Source of the DNA: a bacterium
GTDB taxonomy: Bacteria; Acidobacteriota; Thermoanaerobaculia; Multivoradales; J023
Assembly: GCA_024226315.1 (NCBI GenBank)
Contig: JAAELT010000489.1
Coordinates: 4,830 to 68,829 of the forward strand
Direction of reading: 5' to 3'
Length of the DNA stretch: 64,000 nucleotides
Translations under genes and position numbers: made by a program
Shown here: positions 7,567 through 54,422 of the stretch, in pieces
Position numbering within the stretch: position 1 is the stretch's first letter
Layout of the letters: each line of letters starts with the position of its first letter
Notes under the pieces: model-generated
What the model saw: the letters and a program-made list of their open reading frames with translations, nothing else
What the model was told of the DNA's origin: nothing
Database searches by the model: none

Positions 7567-7660
7567 GCATGAACACGAGGTTTTCCAGGGCTCACTCGTG
7601 CATAAACACGAGGGTGTTTGGGCTCCACTTGTGCATAAACACGAGGGTGTTTGATACGCT
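7567..7660. promoter_or_regulatory. divergent-promoter region with ~2.5 tandem copies of a ~35-bp unit carrying an AAACAC-N4-GTGTTT dyad
   Basis: Direct repeats gtgcataaacacgagggtgtttg (x2) plus a degenerate third copy (catgaacacgagg). Each full copy contains the inverted repeat AAACAC GAGG GTGTTT. Located between the divergent SDR/deaminase operon and the AAA ATPase gene. Confidence 0.45.
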
Positions 7661-9021
7661 CTCTGTGTATGTATCTGCCGAGACACATCGATCGGGTCCT
7701 ACGCGATTGGAGCCGGAGCAACGACCGCAAGCCGCTGATTCTGCGAGGCGCGCGCCAGACCGGAAAGTCTTCTTCGGTCCGCCAGCTGGCGTCGCACTTC
7801 GACTTGTTTCTGGAGCTGAACCTCGAGCGTCACCGTGACCTCAGCCTGGTCCGATCCTGCAATTCCGCCGACGAGCTGCTGACCGCGCTGGCGGCGCGGC
7901 ACAACGTCGAGCGGTTTCCGGCTCGTACCCTGCTCTTTCTCGACGAGATTCAGGAAAGCCCGGAAGCCGTTCGATGGCTCCGTTTCTTTCGCGAGGATCA
8001 TCCCGAGGTCTTCGTGGTGGCCGCCGGCTCCCTGATGGAGGTTCGGCTCCAGGAGCGGGGCTTTTCGTTTCCGGTGGGTCGCGTGACCTTCAGGATGCTG
8101 CGGCCTTTCAGCTTCTTCGAGTTCCTGGAGGGTTCGGGGCGCGAAGTCCTGGCGGAGAAGCTGCTGGCGGCGGTTCGCAGCGGCGAGCCGCCGGAGCCTC
8201 CTCTGCATGATCAAGCCGTGGGCCTGCTTCGGGACTATCTGTTCGTGGGGGGCATGCCCGAAGCGGTCACACGCTGGCTCGACGATCGCAATCCCGTGAC
8301 GGTGGGTGCCGTCCACGCCGATCTGGTAGGGGCCCTGGCCGAAGATCTTCAAAAATACCGCGGAGCGAAGGATCTCGCTTATCTCGAAGCAGCCTTCGAC
8401 AATCTCCGGCACCACTACGGCTTGCGTTTCAAGTACGAGAACTTCGCGCCCGGATACCGCTCTCAGCTGATGAAGACGGCGCTCGGCAAGCTGGAGGCAG
8501 CGATGCTCGTCACACGGGCCTGGCCGACCAGCTCGCTGCGCTACCCCTTGCGCGTCCGTCCGAGATCGGCTTCCAAGCTCTTGCCCCTCGACGTCGGCTT
8601 GGCACTCCACACCATGGGGCTGGGGCCGGAAACGTCACGTTCTCTGCCCATCGACCGGCTGCTCGACGGCCGGGCGGCGGAGATCTTCGTGGGTCAGCAG
8701 CTTCTGGCGGCCAAGCGCCGGTCGGGCGATCTCCATTTCTGGGTCAGCGAGTCCTCGCGCGGCAACGCAGAAGTCGACTTTCTGCTCGAGGGTGCGGAGG
8801 CCCCGTTGCCGATCGAAGTCAAGTCGGGGGCCTCCGGCTCCCTCAAGTCGCTGCATCAATTCCTGTGGCGCTCCGGGCTCGAGCTCGGCGTGCGCTGTCA
8901 CACCGGGCCTTTCGCAGACCAGAATCTCGAGGTCAAGATGCCGGATCGGAGTCTCCGGTACCGCTTGTTCTCCGTGCCGTTGTACCTGGCGGAGAAGATT
9001 CTGGCGTTGCCGTTGGGGTGA
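7651..9021 (+). CDS. AAA-family ATPase of the DUF4143/COG1373 type
   Basis: Walker A in context LILRGARQTGKSS. Walker B-like LLFLDEIQ. C-terminal DUF4143-like region. An alternative start is at 7669 (MYLPRHI…). Confidence 0.75.
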   Translation: MIRSLCMYLPRHIDRVLRDWSRSNDRKPLILRGARQTGKSSSVRQLASHFDLFLELNLERHRDLSLVRSCNSADELLTALAARHNVERFPARTLLFLDEIQESPEAVRWLRFFREDHPEVFVVAAGSLMEVRLQERGFSFPVGRVTFRMLRPFSFFEFLEGSGREVLAEKLLAAVRSGEPPEPPLHDQAVGLLRDYLFVGGMPEAVTRWLDDRNPVTVGAVHADLVGALAEDLQKYRGAKDLAYLEAAFDNLRHHYGLRFKYENFAPGYRSQLMKTALGKLEAAMLVTRAWPTSSLRYPLRVRPRSASKLLPLDVGLALHTMGLGPETSRSLPIDRLLDGRAAEIFVGQQLLAAKRRSGDLHFWVSESSRGNAEVDFLLEGAEAPLPIEVKSGASGSLKSLHQFLWRSGLELGVRCHTGPFADQNLEVKMPDRSLRYRLFSVPLYLAEKILALPLG

Positions 9022-9046
9022 GGGCCGGGTCGGCTCTCCCGCTCAC

Positions 9047-9082
9047 GCCCACAGCGTGGGCATTTGCCCACAGCGTGGGCAT
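9047..9082. promoter_or_regulatory. two tandem dyad-symmetric sites GCCCAC-AGC-GTGGGC (candidate EBP upstream activating sequences)
   Basis: gcccacagcgtgggcat ttg cccacagcgtgggcat. Each copy has 6-bp inverted arms. Lies ~150-185 bp upstream of the candidate -24/-12 promoter at 9228-9241. Confidence 0.4.
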
Positions 9083-9139
9083 GGCTGAGAGCGCGGTCGA
9101 CGGCGGAAGGTCGCATCGAAGCGAGCGGGAATTCTGCTG

Positions 9140-9164: not shown

Positions 9165-9227
9165 TGGGAGTTTCCGCTCGTTCTGAAGGGCCGCGAGATC
9201 ATGCGTGATCTGCGGGCTTCGTGAGCC

Positions 9228-9242
9228 GGCACCACTCTTGCA
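9228..9242 (+). promoter_or_regulatory. candidate sigma-54 (-24/-12) promoter for the metalloprotease gene
   Basis: cGGCACcactcTTGCAa matches the consensus TGGCACG-N4-TTGCW at 9 of 10 specified positions with correct GG-to-GC spacing. The start codon is 87 nt downstream at 9329. Confidence 0.45.
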
Positions 9243-9328: not shown

Positions 9329-12259
9329 ATGAGAAGACACATCACGACGCCAGCCCTCGCAGCTCTGGTCTTCGCGAGCGCACCCGCATGGGGCGCCCCG
9401 GACGAGCTCTATCGAATCACCGATCGAGAGCCGGTCTTCCAGGAAGAGACCGCGGCGATCGCAGGCGTCGTCGACGAGGTGGAGGTGGCGCTCGACACGA
9501 CCGCTCTCGACCGGAACCCCAGGGTCCTGGAGCTCGAGCTGACCGACGGGCGCCGGCTCACGGTTACGCGAGCTCGCTTCAGCGTCGAGAAAGGCTACCT
9601 GACCTGGATCGGCGAGGCCGCGGCGGTCGATGGCGGGACACCCGGCTACGTCCACCTGGTCGACCATGGCGACCAGGTCTCCGGGATCCTCAACGTCGGA
9701 TCCGATCGCTACCAGATCGTGGCGACGGCGCTGGGCGGACATCGACTGTTCCGCGTCCAAGCCGGGGACGGTGCGGTTTGCGCGCTCGAAGACTCGGAAT
9801 CGCGGCCTGCTGACGTTCTGTATCTCGAATCGGAAGGCTGGGAATCCCGGCCCTCGGATCTCGGGGTCTCTGGGGATTCCCGCCAGCCGACGCTCGAGGA
9901 CGTCGCGGAAGACGATTCTGGTGACGGATCTCCGCGCCCGGACACCGCCACGAAGAGCACGACGACGATCGACGTCCTGGCGGTCTACCCCCAGGATTTC
10001 TCGGGATCGGCGGAGACCGCGGTGCGCAATTTCATCCAGACCTCGGTCTCGATCGCGAACGACGTCTTCGTGCAGAGCAACGTCAGCGCGCAATATCGCC
10101 TGGTCGAGATGGCCAGGCTGTCGGGCGCTCAGCCGCCGGCGACGGGGCTGTTCGAGAACTGGACGTGGATCAACACCGAGCCCCAAGAAACCGTCGACCT
10201 TCGTGACGAGCATTCCGCCGACATGGTGGCTCTGTTCATCCCGCTTTCCTACGACGACGACAATCCCTGTGGCGTCGCCAACCTGCCGGACGCGAACGGG
10301 GATATCGTGAGCGGTGCACCGTACGGCATCGAAGGCCCCTTCGGAGACCGGGCCTTCACCGTTCACCGCAGCGGTTGTGGCCTCAACGATTTCACCTTCG
10401 CCCACGAGCTGGGTCACAACTTCGGAATGCGCCACGACAACGAGAACACGAGCTCGATCCACTTGTTCCCCACCGGGCGGGGCCACGTCCTGAGCTTCAG
10501 CCCCTGGCAGGCCAACGCCAACGGCAGCCTCGAGACCGACGTCCCCGGGGACTTCGCGGTCGGCTATCACTTCACGCCGCAGGAAGACGGGCTCGTCCTC
10601 GAGCTCGGGGGCCTCTTCAACGGCTCGAGAGTGATGCGGCTGTTCGAGAAGGATTCGGGCATGCAGCTCGGGCAAACCACCGTCACCTCCGCCAACAACT
10701 GGAGCTACCGGTTCATTCCGCCAGTCTACGTGAGGGCGGGGACGACCTACACGGTCGCCGTCTATCTCGCTGGATCGGGCGGTTCCATCTACTCCAACGT
10801 CACGCCGTTTCCCCAGACCTACGGCACGGTCTGGATCGAGGGGACGACCTTCGTCTCGACCCTCGGCGATCCGTCGGCTCGCCCCACGAATACGGTCACC
10901 GACGTCATGTACGGCCAGGCGGACATCCGATTCGCGCCCTACTCGTCGGTCATGGGATGTGTCCGCGAGCCGGGCGGCGACATCACCGGCTCCGTGTGCA
11001 GCCGGATCCCCCATTTCTCCGATCCGGCCATCTCCTACCAGGGCTTCGTCACCGGCACCGCCGATCGCAACAACGGGGATGTCGCGCGCGCTCAGGTGGG
11101 GCCGTATTCTGAATTCCGCGGCAACCACGCGCCGGTCTGCGCGGACGACTTTCTCACCACCCCGATGGACACCAGACTCTCGATCCCGCTGGGTCACCTC
11201 CTGGGAAACGACACCGATCCCGATGGCGATGGTCTGTGGCTTTGGAGCTACGATCTCGTCACCGCGCAAGGAGGCACCAACGACACCGGCCACGCCGGTG
11301 GCTTCAACTACACGCCGCCCGTCGGCTTCACCGGCACGGATTGGTTCAACTACACCATTGCGGATCGCGGCGACGGCACCGGGCTGACCGACACCTGCGT
11401 GGGCTACGTCGAGGTGACTCCGACCGAGGAGGACTTCGGTGAAGTGGGGAAGGTCACCAACCTGACCCACGCGCCCCAGACCGTGATCTTGAGTCGATCG
11501 TATGCGAACCCGGTCGTGATCGCTCAGCCGCCGAGCCAGAACGGCAGCCACACCTCCGTGGTGCGCATCACCAGCGTCCAATCGGATCGCTTCACGTTCT
11601 ACATCGACGAAGCGCCGAACATGGATGGTTCGCACACTACCGAAACCGTGAGCTACATGGTGCTGGAGGCCGGAGACTGGCAGCTCGCTGACGGCACCGA
11701 GCTGCGGGCTGGGCGCCTCCAGACCTCGAACACCGTCGGCAGGTCCGTGGCCAACAACTGGGCTGCCGTGAGCTTCGGGGGGACGTTCCCGACCGCCCCG
11801 GTCGTGCTCAGCCAGGTACAGACGAACAATGACCCCAGCTGGGTCAAGACGCGTCATGCCAGCGTGGGAACCTCGTCGTTCCTGGTCGGACTGGAGAAGG
11901 AGGAGGCCAGCACCGTCTCGCACGGCAGCGAGACCGTCGGCTGGGTCGCCATCCAGCCAGCAAGCGGAACCTGGACCACCCATGCCTACCTGGCCGGACG
12001 AACTCCAAACTCGGTCACCGACGCCTGGTACGTCGTCTCTTTCGGCGGCTCGTTCGCAACCCCGCACCTCTTTGCCGCCATGGCGACCTACCATGGTCCC
12101 GACAACGCGGAGTTGCGGTACCGCAACCTCGGTCTGAGCTCGGTGGAAGTGCGGGTTGAAGAAGACACGACGTTGGACGCCGAAGTGGCCCACGCCAGCG
12201 AGGTGGTCGACTACCTGGTCATCGGCAGTGCCGGGACACTGACGGGCGCCCGGCAATAG
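9329..12259 (+). CDS. secreted multi-domain zinc metalloprotease, reprolysin/adamalysin-like (metzincin) with C-terminal beta-sandwich/cadherin-like repeats
   Basis: Signal peptide MRRHITTPALAALVFASAPAWG. Zinc motif HELGHNFGMRHD (HExxHxxGxxHD). Downstream are Asp-rich DxDxDG stretches (NDTDPDGDG) typical of cadherin/VCBS-like domains. C-terminal repeats share the motifs ETVSYMVLEAGDW and ETVGWVAIQPASGTW. 976 aa. Confidence 0.8.
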   Translation: MRRHITTPALAALVFASAPAWGAPDELYRITDREPVFQEETAAIAGVVDEVEVALDTTALDRNPRVLELELTDGRRLTVTRARFSVEKGYLTWIGEAAAVDGGTPGYVHLVDHGDQVSGILNVGSDRYQIVATALGGHRLFRVQAGDGAVCALEDSESRPADVLYLESEGWESRPSDLGVSGDSRQPTLEDVAEDDSGDGSPRPDTATKSTTTIDVLAVYPQDFSGSAETAVRNFIQTSVSIANDVFVQSNVSAQYRLVEMARLSGAQPPATGLFENWTWINTEPQETVDLRDEHSADMVALFIPLSYDDDNPCGVANLPDANGDIVSGAPYGIEGPFGDRAFTVHRSGCGLNDFTFAHELGHNFGMRHDNENTSSIHLFPTGRGHVLSFSPWQANANGSLETDVPGDFAVGYHFTPQEDGLVLELGGLFNGSRVMRLFEKDSGMQLGQTTVTSANNWSYRFIPPVYVRAGTTYTVAVYLAGSGGSIYSNVTPFPQTYGTVWIEGTTFVSTLGDPSARPTNTVTDVMYGQADIRFAPYSSVMGCVREPGGDITGSVCSRIPHFSDPAISYQGFVTGTADRNNGDVARAQVGPYSEFRGNHAPVCADDFLTTPMDTRLSIPLGHLLGNDTDPDGDGLWLWSYDLVTAQGGTNDTGHAGGFNYTPPVGFTGTDWFNYTIADRGDGTGLTDTCVGYVEVTPTEEDFGEVGKVTNLTHAPQTVILSRSYANPVVIAQPPSQNGSHTSVVRITSVQSDRFTFYIDEAPNMDGSHTTETVSYMVLEAGDWQLADGTELRAGRLQTSNTVGRSVANNWAAVSFGGTFPTAPVVLSQVQTNNDPSWVKTRHASVGTSSFLVGLEKEEASTVSHGSETVGWVAIQPASGTWTTHAYLAGRTPNSVTDAWYVVSFGGSFATPHLFAAMATYHGPDNAELRYRNLGLSSVEVRVEEDTTLDAEVAHASEVVDYLVIGSAGTLTGARQ

Positions 12260-12331
12260 GGCGTCCCACCCGGCCGATGAGGCCATCCTCGGATACCGGG
12301 ACGGCCTCATCGCCCTCCGCTCCGGAGCCGC

Positions 12332-14197
12332 TCAACCGCGCAGCCCCAGGCGTTTCAGCTTGTTCGCCAGGCCGTTGCGCGAGATCCCGAGCAGCTTTGC
12401 CGCCTCGATCTGCTTGCCGTTCGAGCGCCTCAGGGCCTCGCGGATCAGCTGCGACTCCAGCTCCCGCAACCGGGGCACGAGGGCCAGGGACCCGGTGCCG
12501 ATCTCCGGTTCGGCCTCGGGCTCGCTCCGCGGCGGGTGGCGGATGCGGTGGGCGAGCATCCCGGAGTCGATCACCTGGCCTTCGGCAGCGGCGCAGACCA
12601 GGCGGTGCATCTCGTGCTCGAGCTCGCGCACGTTCCCGGGCCAGGGGTAGGCGGCCAGAAGCCGCAGCGCTTTCGCGGTCACGCCCCGGATGGACCTGCC
12701 CGCCTCGCCCGCGAAGCGCCGCAGGAAGTGCTCCACCAAGGCGGGGATGTCCTCGCGGGCGTGCCGCAGAGGCGGCACCTCGAGGAGGTGCCCGGCCAAC
12801 CGGTAGTAGAGGTCACGCCGGAAGGTACCCTCTTCCATACGCAGTTGTAGGTCGGCGTTGGTGGCGGCTATGACGCGCACGTCGACGCGGCGCGGGCGTT
12901 TGCCCACTGGCTGGATCTCCCTTTCCTGCAAGGCGCGGAGCAGCTTGGCCTGGAGCGCCGGCGCCATGTCGCCGACCTCGTCCAGAAACAACGTCCCCCC
13001 CTCGGCGAGCTGGAACGTTCCCGGGCGCGGGTCTACCCCGGTGGCCACGCCCTTGCCGATGCCGAACATCTCGGCCTCGAGCATTTCCGCCGGGATGGCG
13101 GCACAGTTGATCGCCACGATGGGACCCTGCCGGCGCTCGGAGGACTCGTGGAGGATCTTCGCCACCCGTTCCTTGCCGACGCCGGTCTCGCCGACCACGA
13201 GCACCGCCAGGTGGCCGCTGAGCGACTGGCCCAGATGGCGGTACATCGCCGCGGCGGCGGGTGAGGTTCCCGGGCGGTAGTCGTCGGGGAAGACCAGCTC
13301 CGGAAAGCACCCGGGCCCCGCGCTGGCGTGCGGAGATTTCGCCAGCCGCGGTTCTCGCAGGTCGACGAGGCGTAGGAGGGCTCGCAGCAGCGTCGCGCAG
13401 CGCAGCCGGCCCGGGAAGTCACCCCACAGGAGCAGGCACCGGGGCTCTTGGCCCCGGCCGAATCGTGCCGCCAGACTCAGCACCGGTTCGGTCTCGAGGA
13501 ACGCCGTGCAGAGGTCGCTGCCGGTACGTTCGCGGTCCGATCGCAGACGCTGGATCTCGTCCAGGGATGGGAGCGGAGGCAGCTCGCCAGCCGCCCCCAG
13601 CACCACCGGGTCGCCGGCTGGAGTCCAGTCCACCGCGCAGGCCCCGACCCTCGTCCCGAGCGCCTCGACCAGGAATACCAGGGCGCCGGCCAGATCGGGC
13701 AACGCCCCGGCCGTCAGCCGTTCGATGAAGCGTTCGAGAAGCGACAGCCACTCGCGGGAGATCACCTGCTCGACGTCGCGCTGAGTCACGGTCGCCCGGA
13801 TGTCGTCCGGGCCCGGAGCCGAAGGCTTCGGCTCCACGGCCACACCCGAGGTCTCGAGGGCGAGGCCGAGCTCCACGTCGCCGGCATCCACCGCCTCGAC
13901 CTGCAGGGTGACCGCTCCGAAGCGCACCTCGGCCCCCGGAGCCACCGTCGCGCGGTCGATCCGCCGGCCGTCGACGAAACAGCCGTTGCGGCTGCCCAGG
14001 TCTTCGATCTCCAACCCCTCTGGCGTTACCCGAAGGGCCGCGTGTTCCCTGGAAACCTCGATGTCGGGGAGCACCAGGTCGCTGGCGAACGTCCTGCCGA
14101 TCCGGTACGAACCGAGAACAAGATCGAAGGTTTTCTCCCTGCCGCCAACGACGCCGCGGAGGCGATAGACTAGCCGATTGTTAGAGGAAGATTGCAT
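12332..14197 (-). CDS. FHA-domain / AAA+ sigma-54-interaction-type / Fis-HTH enhancer-binding-protein-like transcriptional regulator
   Basis: N-terminal FHA-like region (…YRIGR…DLVLPD…VSREHAAL…). Central AAA+ region: Walker A GETGVGKE, Walker B LFLDEVGDM, arginine finger region, and GIGKGVATGV in place of the canonical GAFTGA loop. C-terminal Fis-type HTH (IEAAKLLGISRNGLANKLKRLGL). Start chosen at MQSSSNNRL…; the listed ORF starts 22 codons earlier. Confidence 0.85.
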   Translation of the reverse strand: MQSSSNNRLVYRLRGVVGGREKTFDLVLGSYRIGRTFASDLVLPDIEVSREHAALRVTPEGLEIEDLGSRNGCFVDGRRIDRATVAPGAEVRFGAVTLQVEAVDAGDVELGLALETSGVAVEPKPSAPGPDDIRATVTQRDVEQVISREWLSLLERFIERLTAGALPDLAGALVFLVEALGTRVGACAVDWTPAGDPVVLGAAGELPPLPSLDEIQRLRSDRERTGSDLCTAFLETEPVLSLAARFGRGQEPRCLLLWGDFPGRLRCATLLRALLRLVDLREPRLAKSPHASAGPGCFPELVFPDDYRPGTSPAAAAMYRHLGQSLSGHLAVLVVGETGVGKERVAKILHESSERRQGPIVAINCAAIPAEMLEAEMFGIGKGVATGVDPRPGTFQLAEGGTLFLDEVGDMAPALQAKLLRALQEREIQPVGKRPRRVDVRVIAATNADLQLRMEEGTFRRDLYYRLAGHLLEVPPLRHAREDIPALVEHFLRRFAGEAGRSIRGVTAKALRLLAAYPWPGNVRELEHEMHRLVCAAAEGQVIDSGMLAHRIRHPPRSEPEAEPEIGTGSLALVPRLRELESQLIREALRRSNGKQIEAAKLLGISRNGLANKLKRLGLRG

Positions 14198-14503
14198 TGA
14201 TCCCACCCAACATCTCATCGTCCTATTCCACCCATAGGGAGAACGGTTCGCAGACCGTCCCATTCATGTTCTACGAAGAACCGGCGTGGGAAGGACATCC
14301 GTCCACCCACACCCCGATAGGAAACGCGTAGGAAGGCTCCGAATCTGATCAAATGCTCTGTACCGATGTCCCGTGGCGTTCGAACATGACAGGCCTCGGA
14401 TCCGAGGTCGAGACGGCCCACCACGAGTTGAATCCTCGACGAGAAGGGAGCTAGGCTCGCCCACGCTCATTGACGCCGACGGGAATCGCGTCGAGGCGCC
14501 CGA

Positions 14504-24438: not shown

Positions 24439-26763
24439 ATGTTGTGTAGACTTCTCTTCTACTCGTCTGTGGTGGTGACGGTGTTCTCAGGAGTGGTCAC
24501 GGGCGCTGGGTCCGCCGTGGCCGGCCTCGGTGAATGGACCTCGCAAGGTCCGAACGGCGCGCACGTGTTCGCGTTGGCGATCGATCCGGTATCACCGTCG
24601 ACGGTGTATGCTGGCGTGGGCGCGCTGGGCTCCGGACGCGGCGGGTTGTACAAGACGTTCGACAGTGGCGCCAACTGGGCCGCGGTCGACGCCGACTTGC
24701 CGCCCTCGATCTGGGTGACGGCGCTGGCAATCGACCCGATCGACGCCGCCACCGTCTATTGCGGTTCCTCCATCTCTGGCGAGGTCCACAAGACGGTGGA
24801 CGGCGGCCTCCACTGGAATCTGGTCCTGGACGGTGCCGGCGTGGGGCTGGCGATCGATCCTTCTACGCCCTCGACCGTCTACGCGACGGGATCCGGCGGA
24901 GTCTTCAAGAGCACCGATGGCGGTGAGCATTGGGCCGTGATCGGCAACGGCCTCGGCGGCAGCTCGGCCGGAGCTCTGGTGGTCGATCCCGGGGACCCCT
25001 CCACCCTGTACGTGGCGAGCGAGGAGCGGATCTTCAAGAGCACCGACGGTGGCGGTTCATGGATGGCTGCCGATAGCGGCCTGGACGTTGGCCGGGTCGA
25101 GGCGCTGGCAATCGATCCCGACGATCCGTCGATTCTCTACGCCGGCGGGCGAGGCGTGTACCGGAGCACCGGCGGCGGCGGTCACTGGAGTCCCGTCAAC
25201 GAAGGACTGATCACCATCGACGAAATCCCGGCCAGCGTCCGGGCGCTGGCGATCGATCCGGCGACGCCGTCCACCGTCTATGCCGGGGCCATTCTCGGCA
25301 CCGGTGGAGGCGTCTACAAGAGCACCGACGGTGGTGGCAGCTGGGTCAAGATCCTGGATGTTCTGAGGGCCCAGGCCCTGGCGGTCGATCCGGCGGACCC
25401 GTCGACCGTCTACGCCGGGGTCGCGGTATTCCTGGAGGCCGTCGATCACAGCGACGGCCTCCTCAAGAGCACGGACTTCGGTCAGAGCTGGGACGTGTCC
25501 AACATGGGCTTGAGCAATACGTCGATTCTGGCGCTGGCGATCGATCCCGCGCAGACCTCCACGTTGCTCGCCGGTTTCGACGACGGCCTGGCCCGGAGCG
25601 CCGACGGCGGCGCCACCTGGGAGCTGTCGGCGTACAGGGACTTCAGGATCACGACTCTGGCCGTCGACCCCCGGGTTCCGTCGACCGTCTACGCCGCGGT
25701 CGAATCTCTGCCTCAGTTCGTCTTGGTGAAGAGTACCGACGGAGGTCTCTCCTGGGCGTCAACGGGCCTCCGCGACGTCCGTGTCCGGCAGGTGCTGATC
25801 GATCCCCTGGATTCTCAGAACCTGTATGCCGTGACGTTCGACGTCCTCTCGGATCCCTCGGGAGACGTGTACAGGAGCTCCGACGGCGGAGCGACCTGGG
25901 TGATGACTTCGCCCGGCTTGCCGGCGGGAGCCGTCAGGATCCTGGCGCTCGATCCCTCCGCGCCGTCGACCCTCTATGCCGGCACCGGTGAGGGGGTCTA
26001 CAAGACCGTCGACGGTGGGGATTCCTGGGCCGCCGCGAGCGCCGGCCTGGACGAACCCGACGTCAGAGCTCTGGCCGTCGCCCCCGCGGACCCGACGACG
26101 ATCTACGCGGGGACGGCGGACGGGATCTTCAAGACCACGAACGGCGGTTCAGGTTGGTTTCCGGCCGGGCTGGCCGATTCGTCGATCACGGCCCTGGCGA
26201 TCGACCCGGTCGATTCCGTCAACGTCTATGCAGCATCGTTGTCGACCGTCTTCCGGAGCTCGGACGGCGGCGGGGAGTGGGCTTCTTTCAACGACGGGCT
26301 CGAGAACGCGCAGGTCAGGTCCCTGGTTGTGGATCCGGCTCGCCCCTCGACGCTTCACGCCGCGACCGACAATGGTGTCTTCGACATTGACACGAGCACG
26401 GCCTGTATCGCTGACGAGGACACCCTGTGTCTGAACGGCGACCGTTTCCGAGTCGAGGTCGAGTGGCGGGACTTCGAAGGAACCCTCGGCGCCGGCAGGG
26501 TCGTGCCCCTCGGACCGGCGGCCTCGCAGGACTCCGGCCTGTTCTGGTTTTTCGATCAGGACAACTGGGAGATGTTGATCAAGGTGCTCGACGGCTGCGC
26601 GATCAACGGCCGCTTCTGGGTGTTCTCGGCCGCGACGACCAACGTCGCCTACACACTGCGGGTGACCGACACCGAGTCGCTCGAGACGCGGGAGTACTCC
26701 AACCCGCTCGGCACTTCAGCGGCCGCCGTGACCGACACGGGTGCGTTCGAGACCTGTCCGTAG
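24439..26763 (+). CDS. secreted BNR/Asp-box repeat beta-propeller protein with a distinct Cys-containing C-terminal domain
   Basis: GGGAGG Shine-Dalgarno then ATG at 24439. Signal-peptide-like N-terminus. At least 13 S-x-D-x-G-x-x-W Asp-box repeats (YKTFDSGANW, FKSTDGGEHW, YRSTGGGGHW, YKSTDGGGSW, YRSSDGGATW …). The last ~130 aa (ACIADEDTLCLNGDRFRVEVEW…CAINGRFWVF…) do not follow the repeat pattern. Confidence 0.8.
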   Translation: MLCRLLFYSSVVVTVFSGVVTGAGSAVAGLGEWTSQGPNGAHVFALAIDPVSPSTVYAGVGALGSGRGGLYKTFDSGANWAAVDADLPPSIWVTALAIDPIDAATVYCGSSISGEVHKTVDGGLHWNLVLDGAGVGLAIDPSTPSTVYATGSGGVFKSTDGGEHWAVIGNGLGGSSAGALVVDPGDPSTLYVASEERIFKSTDGGGSWMAADSGLDVGRVEALAIDPDDPSILYAGGRGVYRSTGGGGHWSPVNEGLITIDEIPASVRALAIDPATPSTVYAGAILGTGGGVYKSTDGGGSWVKILDVLRAQALAVDPADPSTVYAGVAVFLEAVDHSDGLLKSTDFGQSWDVSNMGLSNTSILALAIDPAQTSTLLAGFDDGLARSADGGATWELSAYRDFRITTLAVDPRVPSTVYAAVESLPQFVLVKSTDGGLSWASTGLRDVRVRQVLIDPLDSQNLYAVTFDVLSDPSGDVYRSSDGGATWVMTSPGLPAGAVRILALDPSAPSTLYAGTGEGVYKTVDGGDSWAAASAGLDEPDVRALAVAPADPTTIYAGTADGIFKTTNGGSGWFPAGLADSSITALAIDPVDSVNVYAASLSTVFRSSDGGGEWASFNDGLENAQVRSLVVDPARPSTLHAATDNGVFDIDTSTACIADEDTLCLNGDRFRVEVEWRDFEGTLGAGRVVPLGPAASQDSGLFWFFDQDNWEMLIKVLDGCAINGRFWVFSAATTNVAYTLRVTDTESLETREYSNPLGTSAAAVTDTGAFETCP

Positions 26764-26898
26764 GCATGCCGAGGTCGAGCTGGGCAGGTCTGTGTCACGA
26801 ACTCACTTCAAGCCCCTGTCAGTGGACGCTGTCACGGCAAGTGGTATGTTTTTCAATGCTTTGAACCGCACCACGAGCGTCGGAGGCCGACGTTCCGG

Positions 26899-27169
26899 CT
26901 CTCCGCCCCGCGGGGCGAGCGCCAAAAACACTTGTTTCTGGGTCGCGCCCCGCGGGGCGGGCGCCGATATTTTTTGTTTTTGGGTCGCGCCCCGTGGGGC
27001 GGGCGCCGATATTTTTTGTTCTTGAGTCGCGCCCCGTGGGGCGGGCGCCGACAATGTTTGTAACCGGGCCGCGTCCCGTGGGGCGGGCGCCGATATTTTT
27101 TGTTTTTGGGTCGCGCCCCGCGGGGCGGGCGCCAGTAACTTTTGGTATCAGGCCGCGCCCCGCGGCACC
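26899..27169. repeat. 42-bp tandem repeat, ~6.4 copies; each unit is a GC-rich palindromic hairpin plus a T-rich tract
   Basis: Unit consensus gtcgcgccccgYggggcgggcgcc gatattttttgtttttgg. Units start at 26899, 26942, 26984, 27026, 27068, 27110 and 27152 (partial). Inner core CGCCCCGCGGGGCG is a perfect palindrome. Spacers are near-identical, so this is not a CRISPR array. Confidence 0.85.
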
Positions 27170-27440
27170 AGGAACGGAGCCAACCGGTCGCTGATGAAAC
27201 GCATGACCTCGTTGGACTGTTCCGCCGCGGGCCGGCTGAGCCCCCGCCAGCGGCTGTTGGCGACGATGACGAGATCGGCCTCGGGAACGACCGCGATGAC
27301 CTGGCCGCCGTGTCCGAGCGCGATCCAGGCCAGGGCCGGTGCCGATGCGTCGACCCACCACTGATCGCCGTAGTGCGTCTCGCCGCCGACCTGGACCTGG
27401 CTGGCAGTAGAGGCCTCGATCCACTCCTCGGAGACGACGC
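27148..27440 (-). pseudogene. relic C-terminal fragment of a beta-lactamase/serine-hydrolase-family gene
   Basis: Minus-strand translation …YGDQWWVDASAPALAWIALGHGGQVIAVVPEADLVIVANS… resembles the C-terminal strands of class-C beta-lactamase-like hydrolases. No N-terminal catalytic SxxK region. The 5' part is overwritten by the start of the plus-strand racemase-family gene. Confidence 0.35.
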
Positions 27441-27487
27441 GGCGACCCGACCAGGTGTCTCGGCGGCCTGTAGACTCGTGACGCGCC

Positions 27488-28246
27488 ATGAGCTTTCCGG
27501 TCCAGGGTTTCCCGTACGTCTTGCGGCCGGCCCTTGCCGAACGGGCGGCGATCGGCCTGCTGGCGCTGGCGACCGACGCCACGATCGAGAGCGAGTGGCG
27601 GCTGCTTCTGAACCTCGACGGAGTGGAGCTCTATGTCGGCAGAGTGGCCAACGACCCCGAGATCCGGCCCTCGACCCTGGCGAAGATGGAGGTGCGGCTG
27701 GGCGACGCGGCGGCGGCGTTGCTGCCCGGCTGCCGGCTCGACGTCATGGCGTACGGCTGTACGTCGGCGACTCTGATCATCGGTGAGGAGACCGTGGAGC
27801 GAGCCATCCGCGCGGCCAGGCCCGAGGTTGCGGTGACTCATCCGCTGGGGGCCGCCAAGGCGGCCCTGGCGGCCCTCGGGGTCGGGCGCCTGGCATTGCT
27901 GACGCCTTACGTCGACGAGCTCACCCAGGGCCTGGTCGAACACCTTCGAGCGGCGGGCTTCGACGTGGCTGCCGCGGGCAGCTTTCACAACCCGCTGGAC
28001 CCGGAAGTGGTGCGCATCGCACCCGAGTCCATCATGGAGGCGGCAACCGCCCTGGTGGCCGGCGGCGATGTGGAGGCCCTGTTCATCGCCTGCACGGCGC
28101 TGCGCGCCGCGGCGCTGGTCGAGCCGCTCGAAGACTCCCTGGGGATTCCGGTCATCACCAGCAACCAGGCCATGGCCTGGCACGCTCTACGCCTCGCTGG
28201 CGTCGCCGACGCGCCGCCGTCGGCGGGGCGGCTTTTCCAGCGGTAG
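27488..28246 (+). CDS. Asp/Glu/hydantoin racemase-superfamily protein (maleate isomerase / arylmalonate decarboxylase-like)
   Basis: 252 aa. Pattern IGLLALATDATIESEW … VMAYGCTSAT … EALFIACTALRA, with the two conserved Cys-containing segments of this family. Confidence 0.7.
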   Translation: MSFPVQGFPYVLRPALAERAAIGLLALATDATIESEWRLLLNLDGVELYVGRVANDPEIRPSTLAKMEVRLGDAAAALLPGCRLDVMAYGCTSATLIIGEETVERAIRAARPEVAVTHPLGAAKAALAALGVGRLALLTPYVDELTQGLVEHLRAAGFDVAAAGSFHNPLDPEVVRIAPESIMEAATALVAGGDVEALFIACTALRAAALVEPLEDSLGIPVITSNQAMAWHALRLAGVADAPPSAGRLFQR

Positions 28247-28252
28247 GATGGC

Positions 28253-29497
28253 ATGCCAGACAATGGAGGCACTATGACGACTGACGCTGCGCCCGTCTCC
28301 GAGTCCCAGCGCATCGTCTCGCTGGACGTCCTGCGCGGGTTCGCCCTGCTGGGGATCCTGACGATGAACGTCGGCGCGTTCTCGATGCCCGCGGCAGCGT
28401 ACTTCGCCCCCACGGTCTACGGTGACCTGACCGGGCTGAACGGCTGGATCTGGCGCCTCACGCACCTGCTGGCCGACATGAAGTTCATGGCCATTTTCTC
28501 GATGCTCTTCGGCGCCGGGATCGTGCTCATGACGCAGCGGGCCGAATCGCGCGGCAAGCCGGCGACCGGCCTGCACTACCGGCGTATGGGCTGGCTGATC
28601 GTTTTCGGGCTGCTCCACGCACACCTGCTCTGGTACGGAGACATCCTCTACTGGTATGGCATGTGCGGGCTGGTGGTGTTCCTGTTTCGCAAGCTGTCGC
28701 CGAAGTGGCTGATCGTGCTCGGATTCCTGTCGATCTCGGTCTCTTCCGGCATCATGCTGGCCGCCGGCGCGTCCAGCGGGCACTGGCCGCCGCAGGTGCT
28801 CGAAGAAGTGGTGAAAGAGCTGAAGCCGCCGCCCGAGGCGATGGCGGAAGAGGTCGGTGCCTACCAGGGCGATTGGCTCGAGCAGATGAGCGAGCGGGTG
28901 CCCAAGTCACTCGAGATGGAGACCAGCACTTTTCTCGTCTGGGCGGCGTGGCGGGTTTCCGGGCTCATGCTGCTGGGCATGGCGCTGTTCAAGCTTGGCG
29001 TGTTCGGTGGCGAGCGCTCCCGCCGCTTCTACGCGACGCTGATTGCCGTTGCGGTTGCGGTCGGCATCCCCGTGATCGCATACGGCATCCACTGGAACTT
29101 CGCGACGGCCTGGGAGGCGCCTGGCTTCTTCTTCTTCGGCAGCCAGTTCAACTACTGGGCCAGCATCCTGGTGAGCCTGGGCTGGGTGGGCGTCGTGATG
29201 ATGGCGTGCAAGACGACCAGCCTCTCGGTGCTCCTGCGGCCCTTCGCCGCCATCGGGCGCACCGCGTTCACCAACTACATCCTGCAAACGGTGATCTGTA
29301 CCACCATCTTCTACGGTCACGGGCTCGGCCTCTTCGGCCAGGTCGAACGGTCGGGCCAGGCGGCGATCGTGGTGGCGGTGTGGGTCTTCCAGCTGATCGT
29401 CTCGCCGCTGTGGCTGAGGCACTTCCGGTTCGGCCCGCTGGAATGGGTGTGGCGGTCGCTGGTGTATCTGAAGCGGCAGCCGTTCAAGCGCGACTGA
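28253..29497 (+). CDS. polytopic membrane protein, DUF418/YeiB-like
   Basis: SLDVLRGFALLGILTMNV motif near the N-terminus. ~10 predicted TM segments. The start may instead be the internal Met at ~28274. Confidence 0.55.
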   Translation: MPDNGGTMTTDAAPVSESQRIVSLDVLRGFALLGILTMNVGAFSMPAAAYFAPTVYGDLTGLNGWIWRLTHLLADMKFMAIFSMLFGAGIVLMTQRAESRGKPATGLHYRRMGWLIVFGLLHAHLLWYGDILYWYGMCGLVVFLFRKLSPKWLIVLGFLSISVSSGIMLAAGASSGHWPPQVLEEVVKELKPPPEAMAEEVGAYQGDWLEQMSERVPKSLEMETSTFLVWAAWRVSGLMLLGMALFKLGVFGGERSRRFYATLIAVAVAVGIPVIAYGIHWNFATAWEAPGFFFFGSQFNYWASILVSLGWVGVVMMACKTTSLSVLLRPFAAIGRTAFTNYILQTVICTTIFYGHGLGLFGQVERSGQAAIVVAVWVFQLIVSPLWLRHFRFGPLEWVWRSLVYLKRQPFKRD

Positions 29498-29531
29498 GCC
29501 GGTCGATTGGCGCATCGAGGGGAGATAAAAA

Positions 29532-30038
29532 ATGTTGCCTGAATTCGAGCTGGAAGACGGTGAGAACATCGAGGTCCGACTGGTGAGCTCGGCGAGCTAT
29601 ACCAGCCATGCCAATCAGGTGGCCGCCATCACCAACAAACGCTTCCTCTACATCAAGCGGAAGGAATTCTCGAAACACCCTTACGCACTCGAGTGTTTTC
29701 CGGCCGATGCCTGGTCCGGCCTCCGCTACCGTGCCTCCCTCGCGTTGGTAGCCATGTTCGCCGGAGTCATCATGGTGGTGTTCGGGTTTCTGGTCTTCTA
29801 CTTCCGTACTACCGGTGAGCTCGAAGGCGGCGTCGGCATAGGCCTTGCCCTGCTCATGATCATCTCGGGTGGCGCGTTGGCATTGGGCGTCCGGCGGCAC
29901 AAGTTGCAGTTCACGGTCGGCGACCGCACGCTGCGGTGGCGCTCGAGGGCGATGACGTTCCGCGGTACCCTGGCCGCGGTGCGGCAGACGATCGACCTGG
30001 CGAAAGAGCTGGGTATTCCGGTCACCGGCTCCGCGTGA
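29532..30038 (+). CDS. hypothetical membrane protein (bacterial PH-domain-like, two TM helices)
   Basis: AT-rich Shine-Dalgarno context (gaggggagataaaaa ATG). Two hydrophobic helices flanked by soluble segments. No catalytic motifs. Confidence 0.4.
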   Translation: MLPEFELEDGENIEVRLVSSASYTSHANQVAAITNKRFLYIKRKEFSKHPYALECFPADAWSGLRYRASLALVAMFAGVIMVVFGFLVFYFRTTGELEGGVGIGLALLMIISGGALALGVRRHKLQFTVGDRTLRWRSRAMTFRGTLAAVRQTIDLAKELGIPVTGSA

Positions 30039-52295: not shown

Positions 52296-52583
52296 AGAAC
52301 GCCCGACTATACCCGAGGCAGGATCAGAAACGGGTCGCTTCCAGACCCCGGGCGAGCTTCGAGTTGCGCGCGGTCGTCGAGAGCCTGCGCGAGCGTCTGG
52401 CGGAGCTCGCCGGGCGCGATAGAGGGAAAGAGCGCAGAGAAGCCACTGATTGAGTCTTCCGCCGTCGCGGATAGACGAAACAGCTACGCTCTCGCGCCTG
52501 CCGAGGATATGCTTGCCACCCCAATGAGGACGGGTGAAGCAGGTTCGGCGCTGGGCTATTGCCTACGCGGCGAGATCGGGGGC

Positions 52584-54422
52584 ATGGAGCAGGTCTACCT
52601 GCTCAAGCCGGGCACCAACCAGCTCGGCTCCCTGGCCAACAACGAGATCGCCTTGCCGGCGAACGGCGTGTCGCGTCTGCACGCGCGGTTGATGCTGGTC
52701 GACGGCGAGCTCGAAGTCGAGGACCTGGCGAGCAAGAACGGCACTTTCGTCGCCGGCCGCAAGGTCGAGCGGGCGCGGTTGCTTCCCGGCCAGGTGGTGC
52801 GGTTCGGGCCGGTACCGCTCAAGTTCCAGGAGCTGCACCGCGACGACGCCGAGCTGGCGATCGCCTTCGAGCCCGCGATCGCCGACCAGACCGGCACCGT
52901 GCCGATCGTGCAGTCGCCAGCCAGGGGTCTCGCGGCCTCGATGGCGGCGCAATGGTTGCGCGTCGCCGAGGTCTTTCACTACCACCTCTACGGCAAGCCC
53001 GAGGGCGACCTCGGCGCGGCGCTGGGCGTGCTGGTCGACGAGCTCCATCTCGAGGGCGCCGGCATTCTCGAAATCCCCGAGGACCAGTACCCGATCGTGC
53101 TCGCCGCCTCGGGCCAGGTCGCCCGCGCGGCCACCGACGAGCTGCGCCGCGTGTGCACCGCCTACCTGGCCTCGAGCATGCGCTCCGACGTCTTCTTCAA
53201 GACCACCGCCGAGACCTCGCCGCCGATGACTCTGACGGTCCTCAGGAGCCCCGGCGTCGACCCGCTGGTGCTCGTCCTCTGGGGCGGCTTCCCCGGCCGC
53301 GCCAACTGCGAGCAGCTGCTACGGGTGTTGGTGAGGATGGTCGGGCCCTGCCGCCCGCGGCTCGAACCGTCGGGCGGTGAGCGTCGGCCGCGGGATTTTC
53401 CCGGCCTGGTCTTCCCTCCCGACTACGTCGACGCCCAATCAGCGGCGATGAACAAGATCTACCGCCTGATGCAGACCCTGGCGTTGGGCGACCTGCCGAT
53501 CCTGATCGTCGGCGAGACCGGCGTCGGCAAGGAGTACCTGTCGCAGATCCTGCACGGCTCCTCACCGCGCCGCAAGGGCCCGTTCGTGGCGATCAACTGC
53601 GCCGCCATTCCCGCCGAGCTGCTGGAGGCGGAGCTCTTCGGCATCGGCGAGGGCGTGGCCACCGGCGTCTCCGCCAAGGAGGGCCGCCTGCAGCTGGCCG
53701 ACGGCGGCACGATTTTCCTGGACGAGATCGGCGACATGTCGGCGGACCTGCAGGCCAAGCTACTGCGGGCATTGCAGGAGAAGGAGGTGCACCCGGTGGG
53801 TCGCGATCCGGTGCCGGTCGACGTGCGGGTACTGGCGGCCACCAACCAGGATCTCTCGAAGCGCATCGAGGACGGCTCGTTCCGCTCCGATCTCTACTAC
53901 CGTCTGGCCGGCTACATGCTCGAGATTCCGCCGCTGCGCGACCGCCCGGAGGACGTTCCGGCCCTGGTCGAGCACTTCCTACGCACCTGCGCCAAGGAGC
54001 TCGGCCGGCCGATTCGCGGCCTGACAGTGCGTGCCCTGCGCCTGCTGTGCGACTATCCCTGGCCGGGCAACGTGCGCGAGCTGTCCAATGAAGTGCGCCG
54101 GGCGGTGTACCTGTGCCCCGAGAACCGCACCGTGGAGTCCTCGATCCTGTCGCAGGCGATCCGCGACCACGAGCCGCCCGAGCCCGGAGAGAACCGGGGC
54201 GATTCGAGCCTGCTCGAGACCCAGGAGACCGACGACCTGCCGCCGTCGATGGGGCTGGGGCTCGACTCGCTCAACCTGGAGCAGCTCGAGAGCCAGGCGA
54301 TCGAGGAGGGCCTGCGTCGCTGCGACTACAACCAGGTGCAGGCCGCCAAGCTGCTGGGTATCTCGCGCCAGAGCCTGCGGCGGCGGATGGAACGGTTCGG
54401 GTTACTCAAGCCCTCGCACTGA
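52584..54422 (+). CDS. FHA-domain / AAA+ sigma-54-interaction-type / Fis-HTH enhancer-binding-protein-like regulator (paralog of 12332-14197)
   Basis: Start MEQVYLLKPGTNQLG. FHA region. AAA+ region with GETGVGKE, FLDEIGDM, and GIGEGVATGV in place of GAFTGA. C-terminal HTH VQAAKLLGISRQSLRRRMERFGL. Confidence 0.85.
   Translation: MEQVYLLKPGTNQLGSLANNEIALPANGVSRLHARLMLVDGELEVEDLASKNGTFVAGRKVERARLLPGQVVRFGPVPLKFQELHRDDAELAIAFEPAIADQTGTVPIVQSPARGLAASMAAQWLRVAEVFHYHLYGKPEGDLGAALGVLVDELHLEGAGILEIPEDQYPIVLAASGQVARAATDELRRVCTAYLASSMRSDVFFKTTAETSPPMTLTVLRSPGVDPLVLVLWGGFPGRANCEQLLRVLVRMVGPCRPRLEPSGGERRPRDFPGLVFPPDYVDAQSAAMNKIYRLMQTLALGDLPILIVGETGVGKEYLSQILHGSSPRRKGPFVAINCAAIPAELLEAELFGIGEGVATGVSAKEGRLQLADGGTIFLDEIGDMSADLQAKLLRALQEKEVHPVGRDPVPVDVRVLAATNQDLSKRIEDGSFRSDLYYRLAGYMLEIPPLRDRPEDVPALVEHFLRTCAKELGRPIRGLTVRALRLLCDYPWPGNVRELSNEVRRAVYLCPENRTVESSILSQAIRDHEPPEPGENRGDSSLLETQETDDLPPSMGLGLDSLNLEQLESQAIEEGLRRCDYNQVQAAKLLGISRQSLRRRMERFGLLKPSH

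What the first reader, a model, noticed from the sequence alone, without database searches (positions are those of the whole stretch)
26899..27169. 42-bp tandem repeat x6.4; every unit looks like an intrinsic terminator (palindromic GC hairpin + T-tract)
The units are almost identical (two C/T polymorphisms in the hairpin, spacer variants). It is not CRISPR because the spacers are the same. The repeats sit 135 bp after the BNR gene stop and run into the relic beta-lactamase fragment. Six consecutive hairpin-plus-U-tract units on the plus strand would act as a strong polar terminator stack. Alternatively this is a minisatellite that expanded by slippage and destroyed the neighbouring gene (the beta-lactamase-family gene has lost its N-terminus).
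Basis: seen in the sequence. Interest (0 to 1): 0.6.

Follow-up and report, generated by a model that had tools for sequence, protein, structure and literature searches.

The report
Tandemly amplified terminator-like hairpin repeat
A 42-bp non-coding unit holding a GC-rich hairpin is repeated six times between two genes of an uncultured Acidobacteria-like bacterium; it is a real, lineage-specific minisatellite, and only half of its units look like true transcription terminators, so it is a modest curiosity rather than a new kind of system.

Summary
The repeat is real. There are six head-to-tail 42-bp units at 26902-27153, plus a 12-bp start of a seventh at 27154-27165. No unit differs in length. 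A second, independent contig carries the same array.

Each unit has a conserved 22-bp GC-rich core (CGCGCCCCGYGGGGCGGGCGCC) and a diverged 20-bp AT-rich spacer. The array is non-coding and has no relative in any collection I searched.

All six cores fold into hairpins of 9-12 base pairs (about -17 kcal/mol) on the + strand. Only units 2, 3 and 5 are followed by a good U-tract. Units 4 and 6 are weak, and unit 1 has an A-tract instead. So "every unit is a terminator" is only half right.

The neighbouring beta-lactamase-family relic is real. The array touches its native 3' end. The lost N-terminal part lies about 300 bp away on the far side, so the array did not destroy that gene.

Best reading: a terminator-like hairpin module was amplified locally. 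It probably acts as a redundant, one-directional terminator or 3'-end stabiliser for the BNR gene. A neutral minisatellite is the main rival. REP/BIME, CRISPR, coding repeat and sopC-like centromere readings fail their tests or lack support. Interest is low to moderate.

The parts
24439..26763 (+). BNR/Sortilin-Vps10-like beta-propeller gene. The array lies in its 3' flank.
   Evidence: ORF. Pfam PF15902, PF14870 and PF02012. A 100%-identical 774-aa NCBI protein 'GY719_30685'.
26764..26901 (+). 138-bp non-repeat spacer between the BNR stop and the array. It holds small hairpins without a U-tract.
   Evidence: Sequence; fold.
26902..26943 (+). Unit 1. Degenerate core TCCGCCCCGCGGGGCGAGCGCC, spacer AAAAACACTTGTTTCTGGGT. 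It has a hairpin but an A-tract after it, so it is not terminator-like.
   Evidence: 0 U in the first 8 nt after the stem. One compensatory C-G to U-A pair.
26944..26985 (+). Unit 2. Consensus core plus GATATTTTTTGTTTTTGGGT. Terminator-like.
   Evidence: dG -17.0; 6 U in the first 8 nt after the stem.
26986..27027 (+). Unit 3. Core with a C-to-T change in the loop, plus a T-rich spacer. Terminator-like.
   Evidence: dG -17.1; 7 U in the first 8 nt.
27028..27069 (+). Unit 4. Core conserved, spacer diverged (GACAATGTTTGTAACCGGGC). Weak tail.
   Evidence: 4 U in the first 8 nt. Not reported by the scan. The SNP against L028 is at 27068.
27070..27111 (+). Unit 5. Core with a stem C-to-T change (G-U wobble on + strand RNA). 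Its spacer is identical to that of unit 2. Terminator-like.
   Evidence: dG -18.0; 6 U in the first 8 nt.
27112..27153 (+). Unit 6. Consensus core, diverged spacer AGTAACTTTTGGTATCAGGC. That spacer contains the relic's stop codon (TCA at 27148-27150, read as TGA on the minus strand).
   Evidence: 5 U in the first 8 nt.
27154..27165 (+). Partial seventh core (CGCGCCCCGCGG). It lies within the relic's last six codons (VPRGAA, 27151-27168).
27148..27465 (-). Relic of a PF00144 beta-lactamase-family serine hydrolase. Only the C-terminal ~105 residues remain. It still has a coding signature (GC3 0.88).
27488..28246 (+). Arylmalonate decarboxylase / maleate isomerase-like gene. It is the first intact gene downstream of the array on the + strand, and is followed by a DUF418 gene at 28253-29497.

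Best explanation
This is a lineage-specific, non-coding minisatellite. A terminator-like module was amplified head to tail in the 3' flank of the BNR gene, where that gene converges with a now-decayed serine-hydrolase gene. The module is a GC-rich stem-loop followed by an A/T-rich tract.

When the + strand is transcribed from the BNR gene, each 22-bp core pairs with the GGGT that ends the preceding spacer. This gives a stem-loop of 9-12 base pairs with a 4-5-nt loop (about -17 kcal/mol). In units 2, 3 and 5 the stem is followed directly by (A)UAUUUUUUGUU.., which is the layout of a canonical Rho-independent terminator. Units 4 and 6 are weakened copies and unit 1 is not a terminator.

The inferred effect is redundant, one-directional termination of BNR transcripts, and/or protection of their 3' ends from exonucleases. 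This would insulate the downstream Amdase-DUF418 genes on the same strand.

Shown: the repeat, its non-coding nature, the hairpins, the strand asymmetry, the uneven conservation and its uniqueness. Inferred: origin by duplication of a single terminator, and any activity in the cell.
For: - The array is real and reproduced in a second contig.
- It is non-coding. GC3 is 0.63-0.69 in all six frames, against 0.79-0.92 in the window's genes.
- The hairpin is present in all six units, with 95% of pair cells paired. Slid controls give 45-62%.
- Units 2, 3 and 5 have 6-7 U in the first 8 nt after the stem.
- The minus-strand transcript would carry A-tracts instead, so the design is one-directional and matches the BNR gene's strand. 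AT skew reaches -0.69 in the array.
- The core is far better conserved than the spacer: 2 of 22 against 14 of 20 variable columns, Fisher p = 8e-5.
- The core changes are a loop C/T, a G-U-compatible stem change and one compensatory pair.
- The array holds 7 of the window's 20 A/T runs of 5 or more bases.
- It lies between convergent 3' ends.
Against: - There are no expression data.
- Half of the units lack a good U-tract.
- Elsewhere in the 64-kb window, hairpin-plus-U-tract sites are at background level and gene ends carry hairpins without U-tracts. This organism may therefore not rely on canonical intrinsic terminators.
- Single-unit folding energies are not better than shuffles.
- Covariation is not significant with six near-identical sequences (89 of 500 shuffles).
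- In the full-length fold, neighbouring units pair with each other rather than forming local hairpins.
- Core conservation could come from gene conversion rather than selection.
Confidence: 0.5

Rival explanations
1. Neutral minisatellite (VNTR). Slippage or unequal recombination amplified a 42-bp intergenic segment that happened to contain a GC palindrome. The array has no role, and the terminator likeness of three units is inherited from one ancestral terminator or is incidental.
For: - It is a single locus with no relatives anywhere.
- It is absent from the 64%-identical BNR homologue's locus.
- Half of the units have decayed tails.
- Units 2, 3 and 5 form a young, nearly identical cluster, at 39-40 of 42 positions.
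- It lies next to a pseudogene, in a region under relaxed constraint.
Against: - Divergence is strongly non-uniform: the core stays nearly invariant while the spacers differ at about 33% of sites (p = 8e-5).
- There are no indels despite T-runs.
- Copy number is identical in two contigs that differ at 12 sites.
- Gene conversion limited to the core could explain the first point without invoking function.
Confidence: 0.3
2. Phased protein-binding array at the DNA level, built like the F-plasmid centromere sopC. A dimeric protein would bind each 14-bp perfect palindrome CGCCCCGYGGGGCG. The 42-bp spacing (four helical turns) would put all sites on one face of the helix, allowing a cooperative nucleoprotein complex (regulator, nucleoid protein or centromere-like site).
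For: - Same architecture as sopC: tandem direct repeats of 43-45 bp, each with an inverted repeat, 3-17 copies, with variation concentrated in the first and last repeats (PMC3177203, read).
- The palindrome is conserved while its flanks drift.
- The period is exactly 42 with no indels.
- The central dinucleotide is variable, as is tolerated in many operator sites.
Against: - The 64-kb window has no parA/parB, rep or adjacent DNA-binding gene, and its content is ordinary chromosomal.
- The palindrome occurs nowhere else in the window.
- Conservation extends asymmetrically to GGCGCC and GGGT, which fits a bulged RNA stem better than a symmetric operator.
- The strong T-over-A strand asymmetry has no role in this model.
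Confidence: 0.1
3. Cluster of REP/BIME-like mobile palindromic elements (REPIN-type), mobilised by a RAYT transposase and accumulated at one intergenic site.
For: - The unit is a 20-40-bp imperfect palindrome located downstream of coding regions between convergent genes, as is typical for REPs (PMC3733652 abstract).
- This genome does carry a different dispersed hairpin: CCCCCCTTTTCCAAAGGGGGG occurs twice after gene stops.
Against: - There is no second copy of the core in the 64-kb window or in 10.8 kb of another contig carrying a protein that the source names as from the same MAG.
- No genome or metagenome holds more than single chance matches.
- There is no GTAG or CGTC tag.
- All units are in direct orientation at a fixed 42-bp period, unlike REP dimers in inverted orientation.
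- The window has no transposase.
Confidence: 0.05
4. Degenerate CRISPR array or a protein-coding 14-residue repeat.
For: The repeat-plus-spacer layout superficially resembles CRISPR. The unit length of 42 is 14 codons, and a 454-codon minus-strand ORF runs through the array.
Against: - The spacers are homologous to one another, two are identical, and they are only 20 bp long. There are no cas genes.
- No frame of the array shows the GC3 excess of real genes.
- The long ORF is in a different frame from the relic and overlaps the Amdase gene.
Confidence: 0.02

Closest known systems
Rho-independent (intrinsic) terminators, including natural tandem terminators at operon ends
   Same: GC-rich stem-loop of 9-12 base pairs with a 4-5-nt loop, followed in units 2, 3 and 5 by a U-rich tail. 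It sits downstream of a gene on the same strand and its strand asymmetry is one-directional.
   Different: From general knowledge, known tandem terminators are usually two unrelated sequences. Here one module is repeated six times at a fixed 42-bp period, half the copies have degraded tails, and no activity has been shown. Canonical terminators are not evident elsewhere in the window.
Bacterial intergenic minisatellites / VNTRs (for example mycobacterial MIRU loci; from general knowledge)
   Same: Head-to-tail intergenic repeats with a unit of a few tens of bp and a handful of copies. The end units are degenerate and the locus is lineage-specific.
   Different: MIRU-type units belong to dispersed multi-locus families and vary in copy number among strains. 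Here only one locus is known, and two assemblies show the same copy number.
REP/BIME elements (GTAG- and CGTC-tagged palindromic repeats; PMC3733652)
   Same: Short GC-rich imperfect palindrome, downstream of genes and between convergent ORFs, probably transcribed as an RNA hairpin (for the family description; here).
   Different: It is not dispersed and has no GTAG/CGTC tag. Its units are direct repeats only, at a strict period, and no RAYT is seen.
F-plasmid sopC centromere (12 x 43 bp, each with a 16-bp inverted repeat bound by SopB; PMC3177203)
   Same: Tandem direct repeats of nearly the same unit length, each centred on a short inverted repeat. The end units are variant.
   Different: The context is chromosomal with no partition genes and there is no sequence similarity. 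The spacers are diverged, whereas F sopC units are highly conserved throughout. There is no match in the plasmid collection.
CRISPR arrays
   Same: Alternation of a conserved palindromic repeat with a more variable spacer of similar length.
   Different: The repeat is 22 bp and the spacer 20 bp. The spacers are homologous to each other and two are identical. There are no cas genes and no leader.

Membership tests
Intrinsic (Rho-independent) terminator | Stable GC-rich stem-loop in the nascent RNA | tested here: met
   All six units fold into stems of 9-12 base pairs, dG -16.7 to -18.0 kcal/mol. 95% of pair cells are paired.
Intrinsic (Rho-independent) terminator | U-rich tract immediately 3' of the stem | tested here: inconclusive
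   Met in units 2, 3 and 5 (6-7 U in the first 8 nt), weak in units 4 and 6 (4-5 U), absent in unit 1 (0 U).
Intrinsic (Rho-independent) terminator | Located downstream of a gene on the transcribed strand | tested here: met
   The array starts 138 bp after the BNR stop on the + strand. The minus strand carries A-tracts instead.
Intrinsic (Rho-independent) terminator | RNA 3' ends are generated at the U-tract | not testable with these tools
   No transcript data are available. Term-seq or in vitro transcription is needed.
REP/BIME | High-copy family dispersed over many intergenic sites | tested here: not met
   The core is found only in the array within the 64-kb window and not in L030 (10.8 kb; it carries a protein that the source names as from the same MAG). 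Only single chance hits occur in 596 Gb of genomes and in the metagenome collection. The rest of the source genome could not be scanned.
REP/BIME | GTAG or CGTC tag at one end of the palindrome | tested here: not met
   The unit ends read GGGTCGCG and GGCGCCGATA, with neither tag. The family definition is from PMC3733652.
REP/BIME | Associated RAYT (tyrosine transposase) in the genome | tested here: inconclusive
   None among the window's genes. The rest of the genome was not available.
CRISPR array | Unique spacers between identical repeats of about 23-50 bp | tested here: not met
   The repeat is 22 bp and the spacers 20 bp. The spacers are mutually homologous, and those of units 2 and 5 are identical.
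CRISPR array | cas genes nearby | tested here: not met
   No Cas domain in any of the 36 called genes of the window that were scanned with Pfam.
sopC-type plasmid centromere | Tandem direct repeats of about 43 bp, each with a short inverted repeat | tested here: met
   6 x 42 bp, each with the 14-bp palindrome CGCCCCGYGGGGCG.
sopC-type plasmid centromere | Adjacent parA/parB (sopA/sopB) genes on a plasmid | tested here: not met
   No ParA, ParB or Rep domains were found and the window has chromosomal gene content. There is no similarity to any plasmid record.
sopC-type plasmid centromere | Specific binding by a centromere-binding protein | not testable with these tools
   Requires EMSA, ChIP or DNA pull-down.
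Bacterial minisatellite / VNTR | Head-to-tail non-coding repeats with a unit of 10-100 bp | tested here: met
   TRF period 42, 6.2 copies, 0% indels. No coding signal.
Bacterial minisatellite / VNTR | Copy-number polymorphism among strains | tested here: inconclusive
   Only two assemblies are available, and both have six units plus a partial seventh.

The most novel reading that the evidence does not exclude
The array is not mainly an RNA element. Instead it is a chromosomal, helically phased landing pad: six 14-bp palindromes exactly four helical turns apart. An unidentified dimeric DNA-binding protein would bind it, making it a sopC-like nucleoprotein platform in an Acidobacteria-like chromosome with no linked partition genes. 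Selection on the binding sites and their phase would explain the invariant core, the drifting spacers and the absence of indels.
Probability: 0.08. Interest if true: 0.6.

Novelty: new member of a known kind. Interest (0 to 1): 0.27.

Why it matters
If the array does terminate transcription, it would be a natural case of one terminator module amplified into a redundant, one-directional stack. It would occur in a GC-rich lineage where canonical hairpin-plus-U-tract terminators otherwise seem rare. That is of some use for understanding how terminators arise and decay, and as a source of insulator parts for high-GC hosts.

The uneven conservation (fixed core, drifting spacer, fixed period) is a small, clean example of constraint or gene conversion inside a minisatellite.

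It is nevertheless a single locus in one uncultured population, with no relatives and no expression data. It opens no long-standing question.

Tried and rejected
1. Rfam gave nothing at gathering thresholds over the whole window. Around the array only sub-threshold chance hits appeared, such as microRNA models at 15-25 bits against cut-offs of 62-90.
2. Exact scans for the 22-bp core in species-representative genomes and in JGI metagenomes gave 16 and 11 single matches. All lack a T-tract or tandem copies and come from unrelated GC-rich taxa, so they are chance matches.
3. Viral contigs (core alone, and two palindromes 24-32 bp apart), the plasmid collection and the phage collection gave no match.
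4. Orthologous loci:
   - The 64%-identical BNR homologue sits in a different gene neighbourhood and has no array.
   - Amdase homologues are at most 63% identical and show no synteny, so the ancestral state of the locus could not be reconstructed.
   - Look-ups of three BNR-like proteins that the source names as from the same MAG yielded only one extra 10.8-kb contig.
5. The word-indexed protein search found nothing for the relic. The exhaustive HMMER search did find homologues.
6. A sigma-54 promoter or enhancer-binding-site reading of the array was rejected: there is no GG-N10-GC promoter match between 26700 and 27500. No sigma-70-like promoter was found in 24000-30000.
7. The coding-repeat reading was rejected by the GC3 values.
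8. Covariation support for the hairpin: there is too little variation for significance.
9. Literature searches found no described class of tandemly repeated identical terminators and no paper on the source assembly.

Full report

Yes. Tandem Repeats Finder reports one array at 26904-27165 with period 42, 6.2 copies, 81% matches, no indels and score 307. No other array in the window scores above 116. The repeat finder places six copies at start-to-start spacings of exactly 42 bp.

Laid out in register, the units start at 26902, 26944, 26986, 27028, 27070 and 27112. A seventh begins at 27154 and breaks off after 12 bp.

Each unit has two parts:
- a 22-bp GC-rich core, CGCGCCCCGYGGGGCGGGCGCC, which contains the perfect 14-bp palindrome CGCCCCGCGGGGCG;
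- a 20-bp A/T-rich spacer, with consensus GATATTTTTTGTTTTTGGGT.

Allowing up to 3 mismatches, the core matches six times in the window, all in the array, against 0.04 expected. The palindrome occurs nowhere else in the window.

A second public contig, JAANTA011277063.1 from assembly GCA_024449835.1, is 99.8% identical over 6,588 bp. It carries the same six-and-a-bit units with one substitution, at 27068. The array is therefore not an assembly artefact. The two available versions show no copy-number difference.

**2. Context**

The window looks like ordinary chromosome from an uncultured bacterium. The BNR protein is 100% identical to an NCBI MAG protein, 'bacterium GY719_30685'. Its named homologues are mostly Acidobacteriota/Thermoanaerobaculia.

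Genes in the window include an ABC transporter, amidohydrolase, Ser/Thr kinases with TPR repeats, FHA-sigma-54 activators, a tricorn-like protease, an SNF2 helicase, glycosyltransferases and a sulfatase. There are no partition, replication, transposase, integrase or cas genes.

Upstream of the array, on the + strand, the BNR/Sortilin-like gene stops at 26763. That is 138 bp before unit 1.

On the other side, on the minus strand, lies an ORF at 27148-27582.
- Its residues ~40-138 align with the C-terminal ~100 residues of ~350-aa proteins. There are 2,007 hits at E <= 0.001 (alignment).
- Two of these full-length proteins are PF00144 beta-lactamase family.
- The best solved relative is Lsa45, residues 233-297 of 342.
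- The relic keeps a coding signature, with GC3 of 0.88.
- It lacks the ~240 N-terminal residues, including the S-x-x-K motif.

The relic's stop codon (27148-27150) lies in the spacer of unit 6, and its last six codons lie across the partial seventh core. So the array touches the gene's native 3' end. The truncation is at the other end, near 27465, beside the start of the Amdase-like gene at 27488. The array therefore did not remove the N-terminus.

**3. Anatomy of the units**

- **Non-coding.** GC3 is 0.63-0.69 in all six frames, against 0.79-0.92 in the window's genes.
- **Hairpins.** On the + strand each core, together with the GGGT/GGGC that ends the preceding spacer, folds into a bulged stem of 9-12 base pairs with a 4-5-nt loop. 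The energy is -16.7 to -18.0 kcal/mol.
- **Variation within the core.** The C-to-T change in unit 5 gives a G-U pair. Unit 1 carries one compensatory C-G to U-A change.
- **Pairing statistics.** Overall 95% of pair cells are paired, against 45-62% when the partners are slid. With six near-identical sequences the covariation is not significant (89 of 500 shuffles reach it).
- **Energies against shuffles.** Single-unit energies are not better than dinucleotide shuffles, with z-scores of -0.5 to -1.1. GC-rich sequence folds well anyway.
- **Tails.** What is distinctive is the tail after the last paired base. The number of U in the first 8 nt is 0, 6, 7, 4, 6 and 5 for units 1 to 6. The simple terminator scan reports units 2, 3 and 5 only.
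- **Strand asymmetry.** On the minus strand the hairpins are followed by A-tracts. AT skew reaches -0.69 across the array.
- **Homopolymer runs.** The array holds 7 of the window's 20 A/T runs of five or more bases.

So the claim that every unit looks like an intrinsic terminator is half true. There are three good modules, two weak ones and one that is not terminator-like, all oriented for the BNR gene.

**4. Pattern of divergence**

Among units 2-6, 2 of 22 core columns vary against 14 of 20 spacer columns (Fisher p = 8e-5). Mean pairwise difference is 0.045 per site in the core and 0.33 in the spacer.

Units 2, 3 and 5 are nearly identical (39-40 of 42 positions). Units 1, 4 and 6 each have their own diverged spacer but a conserved core. 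No unit has gained or lost a base, despite runs of five and six T.

This is not what uniform neutral decay of a minisatellite predicts. It points to constraint on the core and perhaps on the period, or to gene conversion confined to the core.

**5. Relatives**

None was found.
- Exact scans for the core gave 16 single matches in 596 Gb of species-representative genomes and 11 in the metagenome collection. All lack T-tracts or neighbouring copies and come from unrelated GC-rich taxa.
- Viral contigs, plasmids and phages gave nothing.
- Rfam gave nothing at gathering thresholds, and only weak chance hits at permissive ones.
- The closest BNR homologue (64% identity) lies in a different neighbourhood and has no array downstream.
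- Amdase homologues (at most 63% identity) show no synteny.

The ancestral state of the locus could not be recovered. Most of the source genome could not be scanned. One further 10.8-kb contig, carrying a protein that the source names as from the same MAG, has no copy.

**6. Most likely mechanism**

I read the array as a local head-to-tail amplification of a terminator-like module, sitting where the BNR gene and the former serine-hydrolase gene converge.

On BNR transcripts, the hairpins of units 2, 3 and 5 with their U-tracts should act as successive Rho-independent terminators. All six hairpins could hinder 3'-to-5' exonucleases, as is proposed for REP elements (family description in PMC3733652). 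The result would be polar insulation of the Amdase-DUF418 genes that follow on the same strand.

The structure and asymmetry are shown. The activity is inferred.

Several points weigh against it:
- The rest of the window shows terminator-like sites only at background frequency: 10 found against 7.8 expected, 11 against 8.2, and 8 against 5.0.
- Other gene ends carry hairpins without U-tracts. This organism may not depend on canonical terminators.
- In a full-length equilibrium fold, neighbouring units pair with each other.

I put about 0.5 on this reading. I put about 0.3 on a functionless minisatellite whose core is homogenised by conversion.

**7. Other readings**

- **Phased protein-binding array.** The architecture closely parallels the F-plasmid centromere sopC. 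That centromere has 12 direct repeats of 43 bp, each with a 16-bp inverted repeat bound by SopB. Related centromeres have 3-17 copies of 43-45 bp, with variation mostly in the end repeats (PMC3177203). Forty-two bp is four helical turns. However, there are no partition genes, no nearby DNA-binding gene, no plasmid context and no plasmid match. Conservation extends asymmetrically, in a way that fits a bulged RNA stem. I keep this as the most novel reading not excluded, at about 0.08-0.1.
- **REP/BIME.** This fails on copy number, on the GTAG/CGTC tag and on orientation.
- **CRISPR.** This fails on repeat and spacer length, on spacer homology and on the absence of cas genes.
- **Coding repeat.** This fails on GC3.

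**8. Verdict**

The feature is real and the description is partly right. The gene-destruction alternative is not supported.

It is a new member of a known kind: a bacterial intergenic minisatellite made of hairpin units. It has an interesting but small asymmetry between a fixed core and drifting spacers. Interest is about 0.27.

Noticed in passing
window 858-878 and 54443-54463: An identical 21-nt hairpin, CCCCCCTTTTCCAAAGGGGGG, occurs twice (0 expected by chance). Each copy lies about 20-40 bp after a + strand gene stop: the Bmp/PnrA-like gene ending at 820 and the FHA-sigma-54 activator ending at 54422. It looks like a dispersed REP-like or terminator hairpin without a U-tract, and it is unrelated to the array's unit.
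   Followed up: partly
window 23700-24100: The 744-bp intergenic region upstream of the BNR gene holds degenerate repeats of about 80 bp in both orientations. They carry TTTC-CGGAAA-like palindromic motifs (direct copies at 70% identity, 80 bp apart; inverted pairs at 71-73%). This may be a regulatory or decayed repeat region.
   Followed up: partly
window 9227-9242: CGGCACCACTCTTGCA is one mismatch from the sigma-54 promoter consensus TGGCAC-N5-TTGCW. It lies about 87 bp upstream of the M12 metallopeptidase/cadherin-like gene at 9329-12259. The window also encodes two FHA-domain sigma-54 activators, at 12332-14263 and 52509-54422.
   Followed up: no
window 21414-21554: Nine of the 12 differences between the window and the independent contig L028 cluster in 140 bp inside the TPR/peptidase-S41 gene (20913-21899). 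This could be a hypervariable patch, or a strain-level recombination or assembly effect near that contig's end.
   Followed up: no
window 12260-12331: The 72-bp gap between convergent genes (9329-12259 on + and 12332-14263 on -) is almost entirely one long GC-rich hairpin (CGATGAGGCC...GGCCTCATCG; -39 to -46 kcal/mol on either strand). It has no U-tract and may be a bidirectional terminator of the type this genome seems to use.
   Followed up: no
window 7567-7653 and 9040-9090: A 33-bp tandem repeat (2-2.5 copies) lies just upstream of the AAA_14/DUF4143 ATPase gene (7651-9021). A duplicated motif, CCCACAGCGTGGGCAT, lies just downstream of it.
   Followed up: no
window 55919-56250: The intergenic region after the pyridoxal-dependent decarboxylase gene has repeated TTCGCAAACGCGRAGCG-like motifs and strong local structure (-70.6 kcal/mol over 160 nt).
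   Followed up: no
window 24358-26763 and 56779-60054: The window holds two BNR/Sortilin-like beta-propeller genes. At least four further BNR-like proteins carry the same MAG's GY719 locus-tag prefix, which suggests an expanded family in this organism.
   Followed up: no
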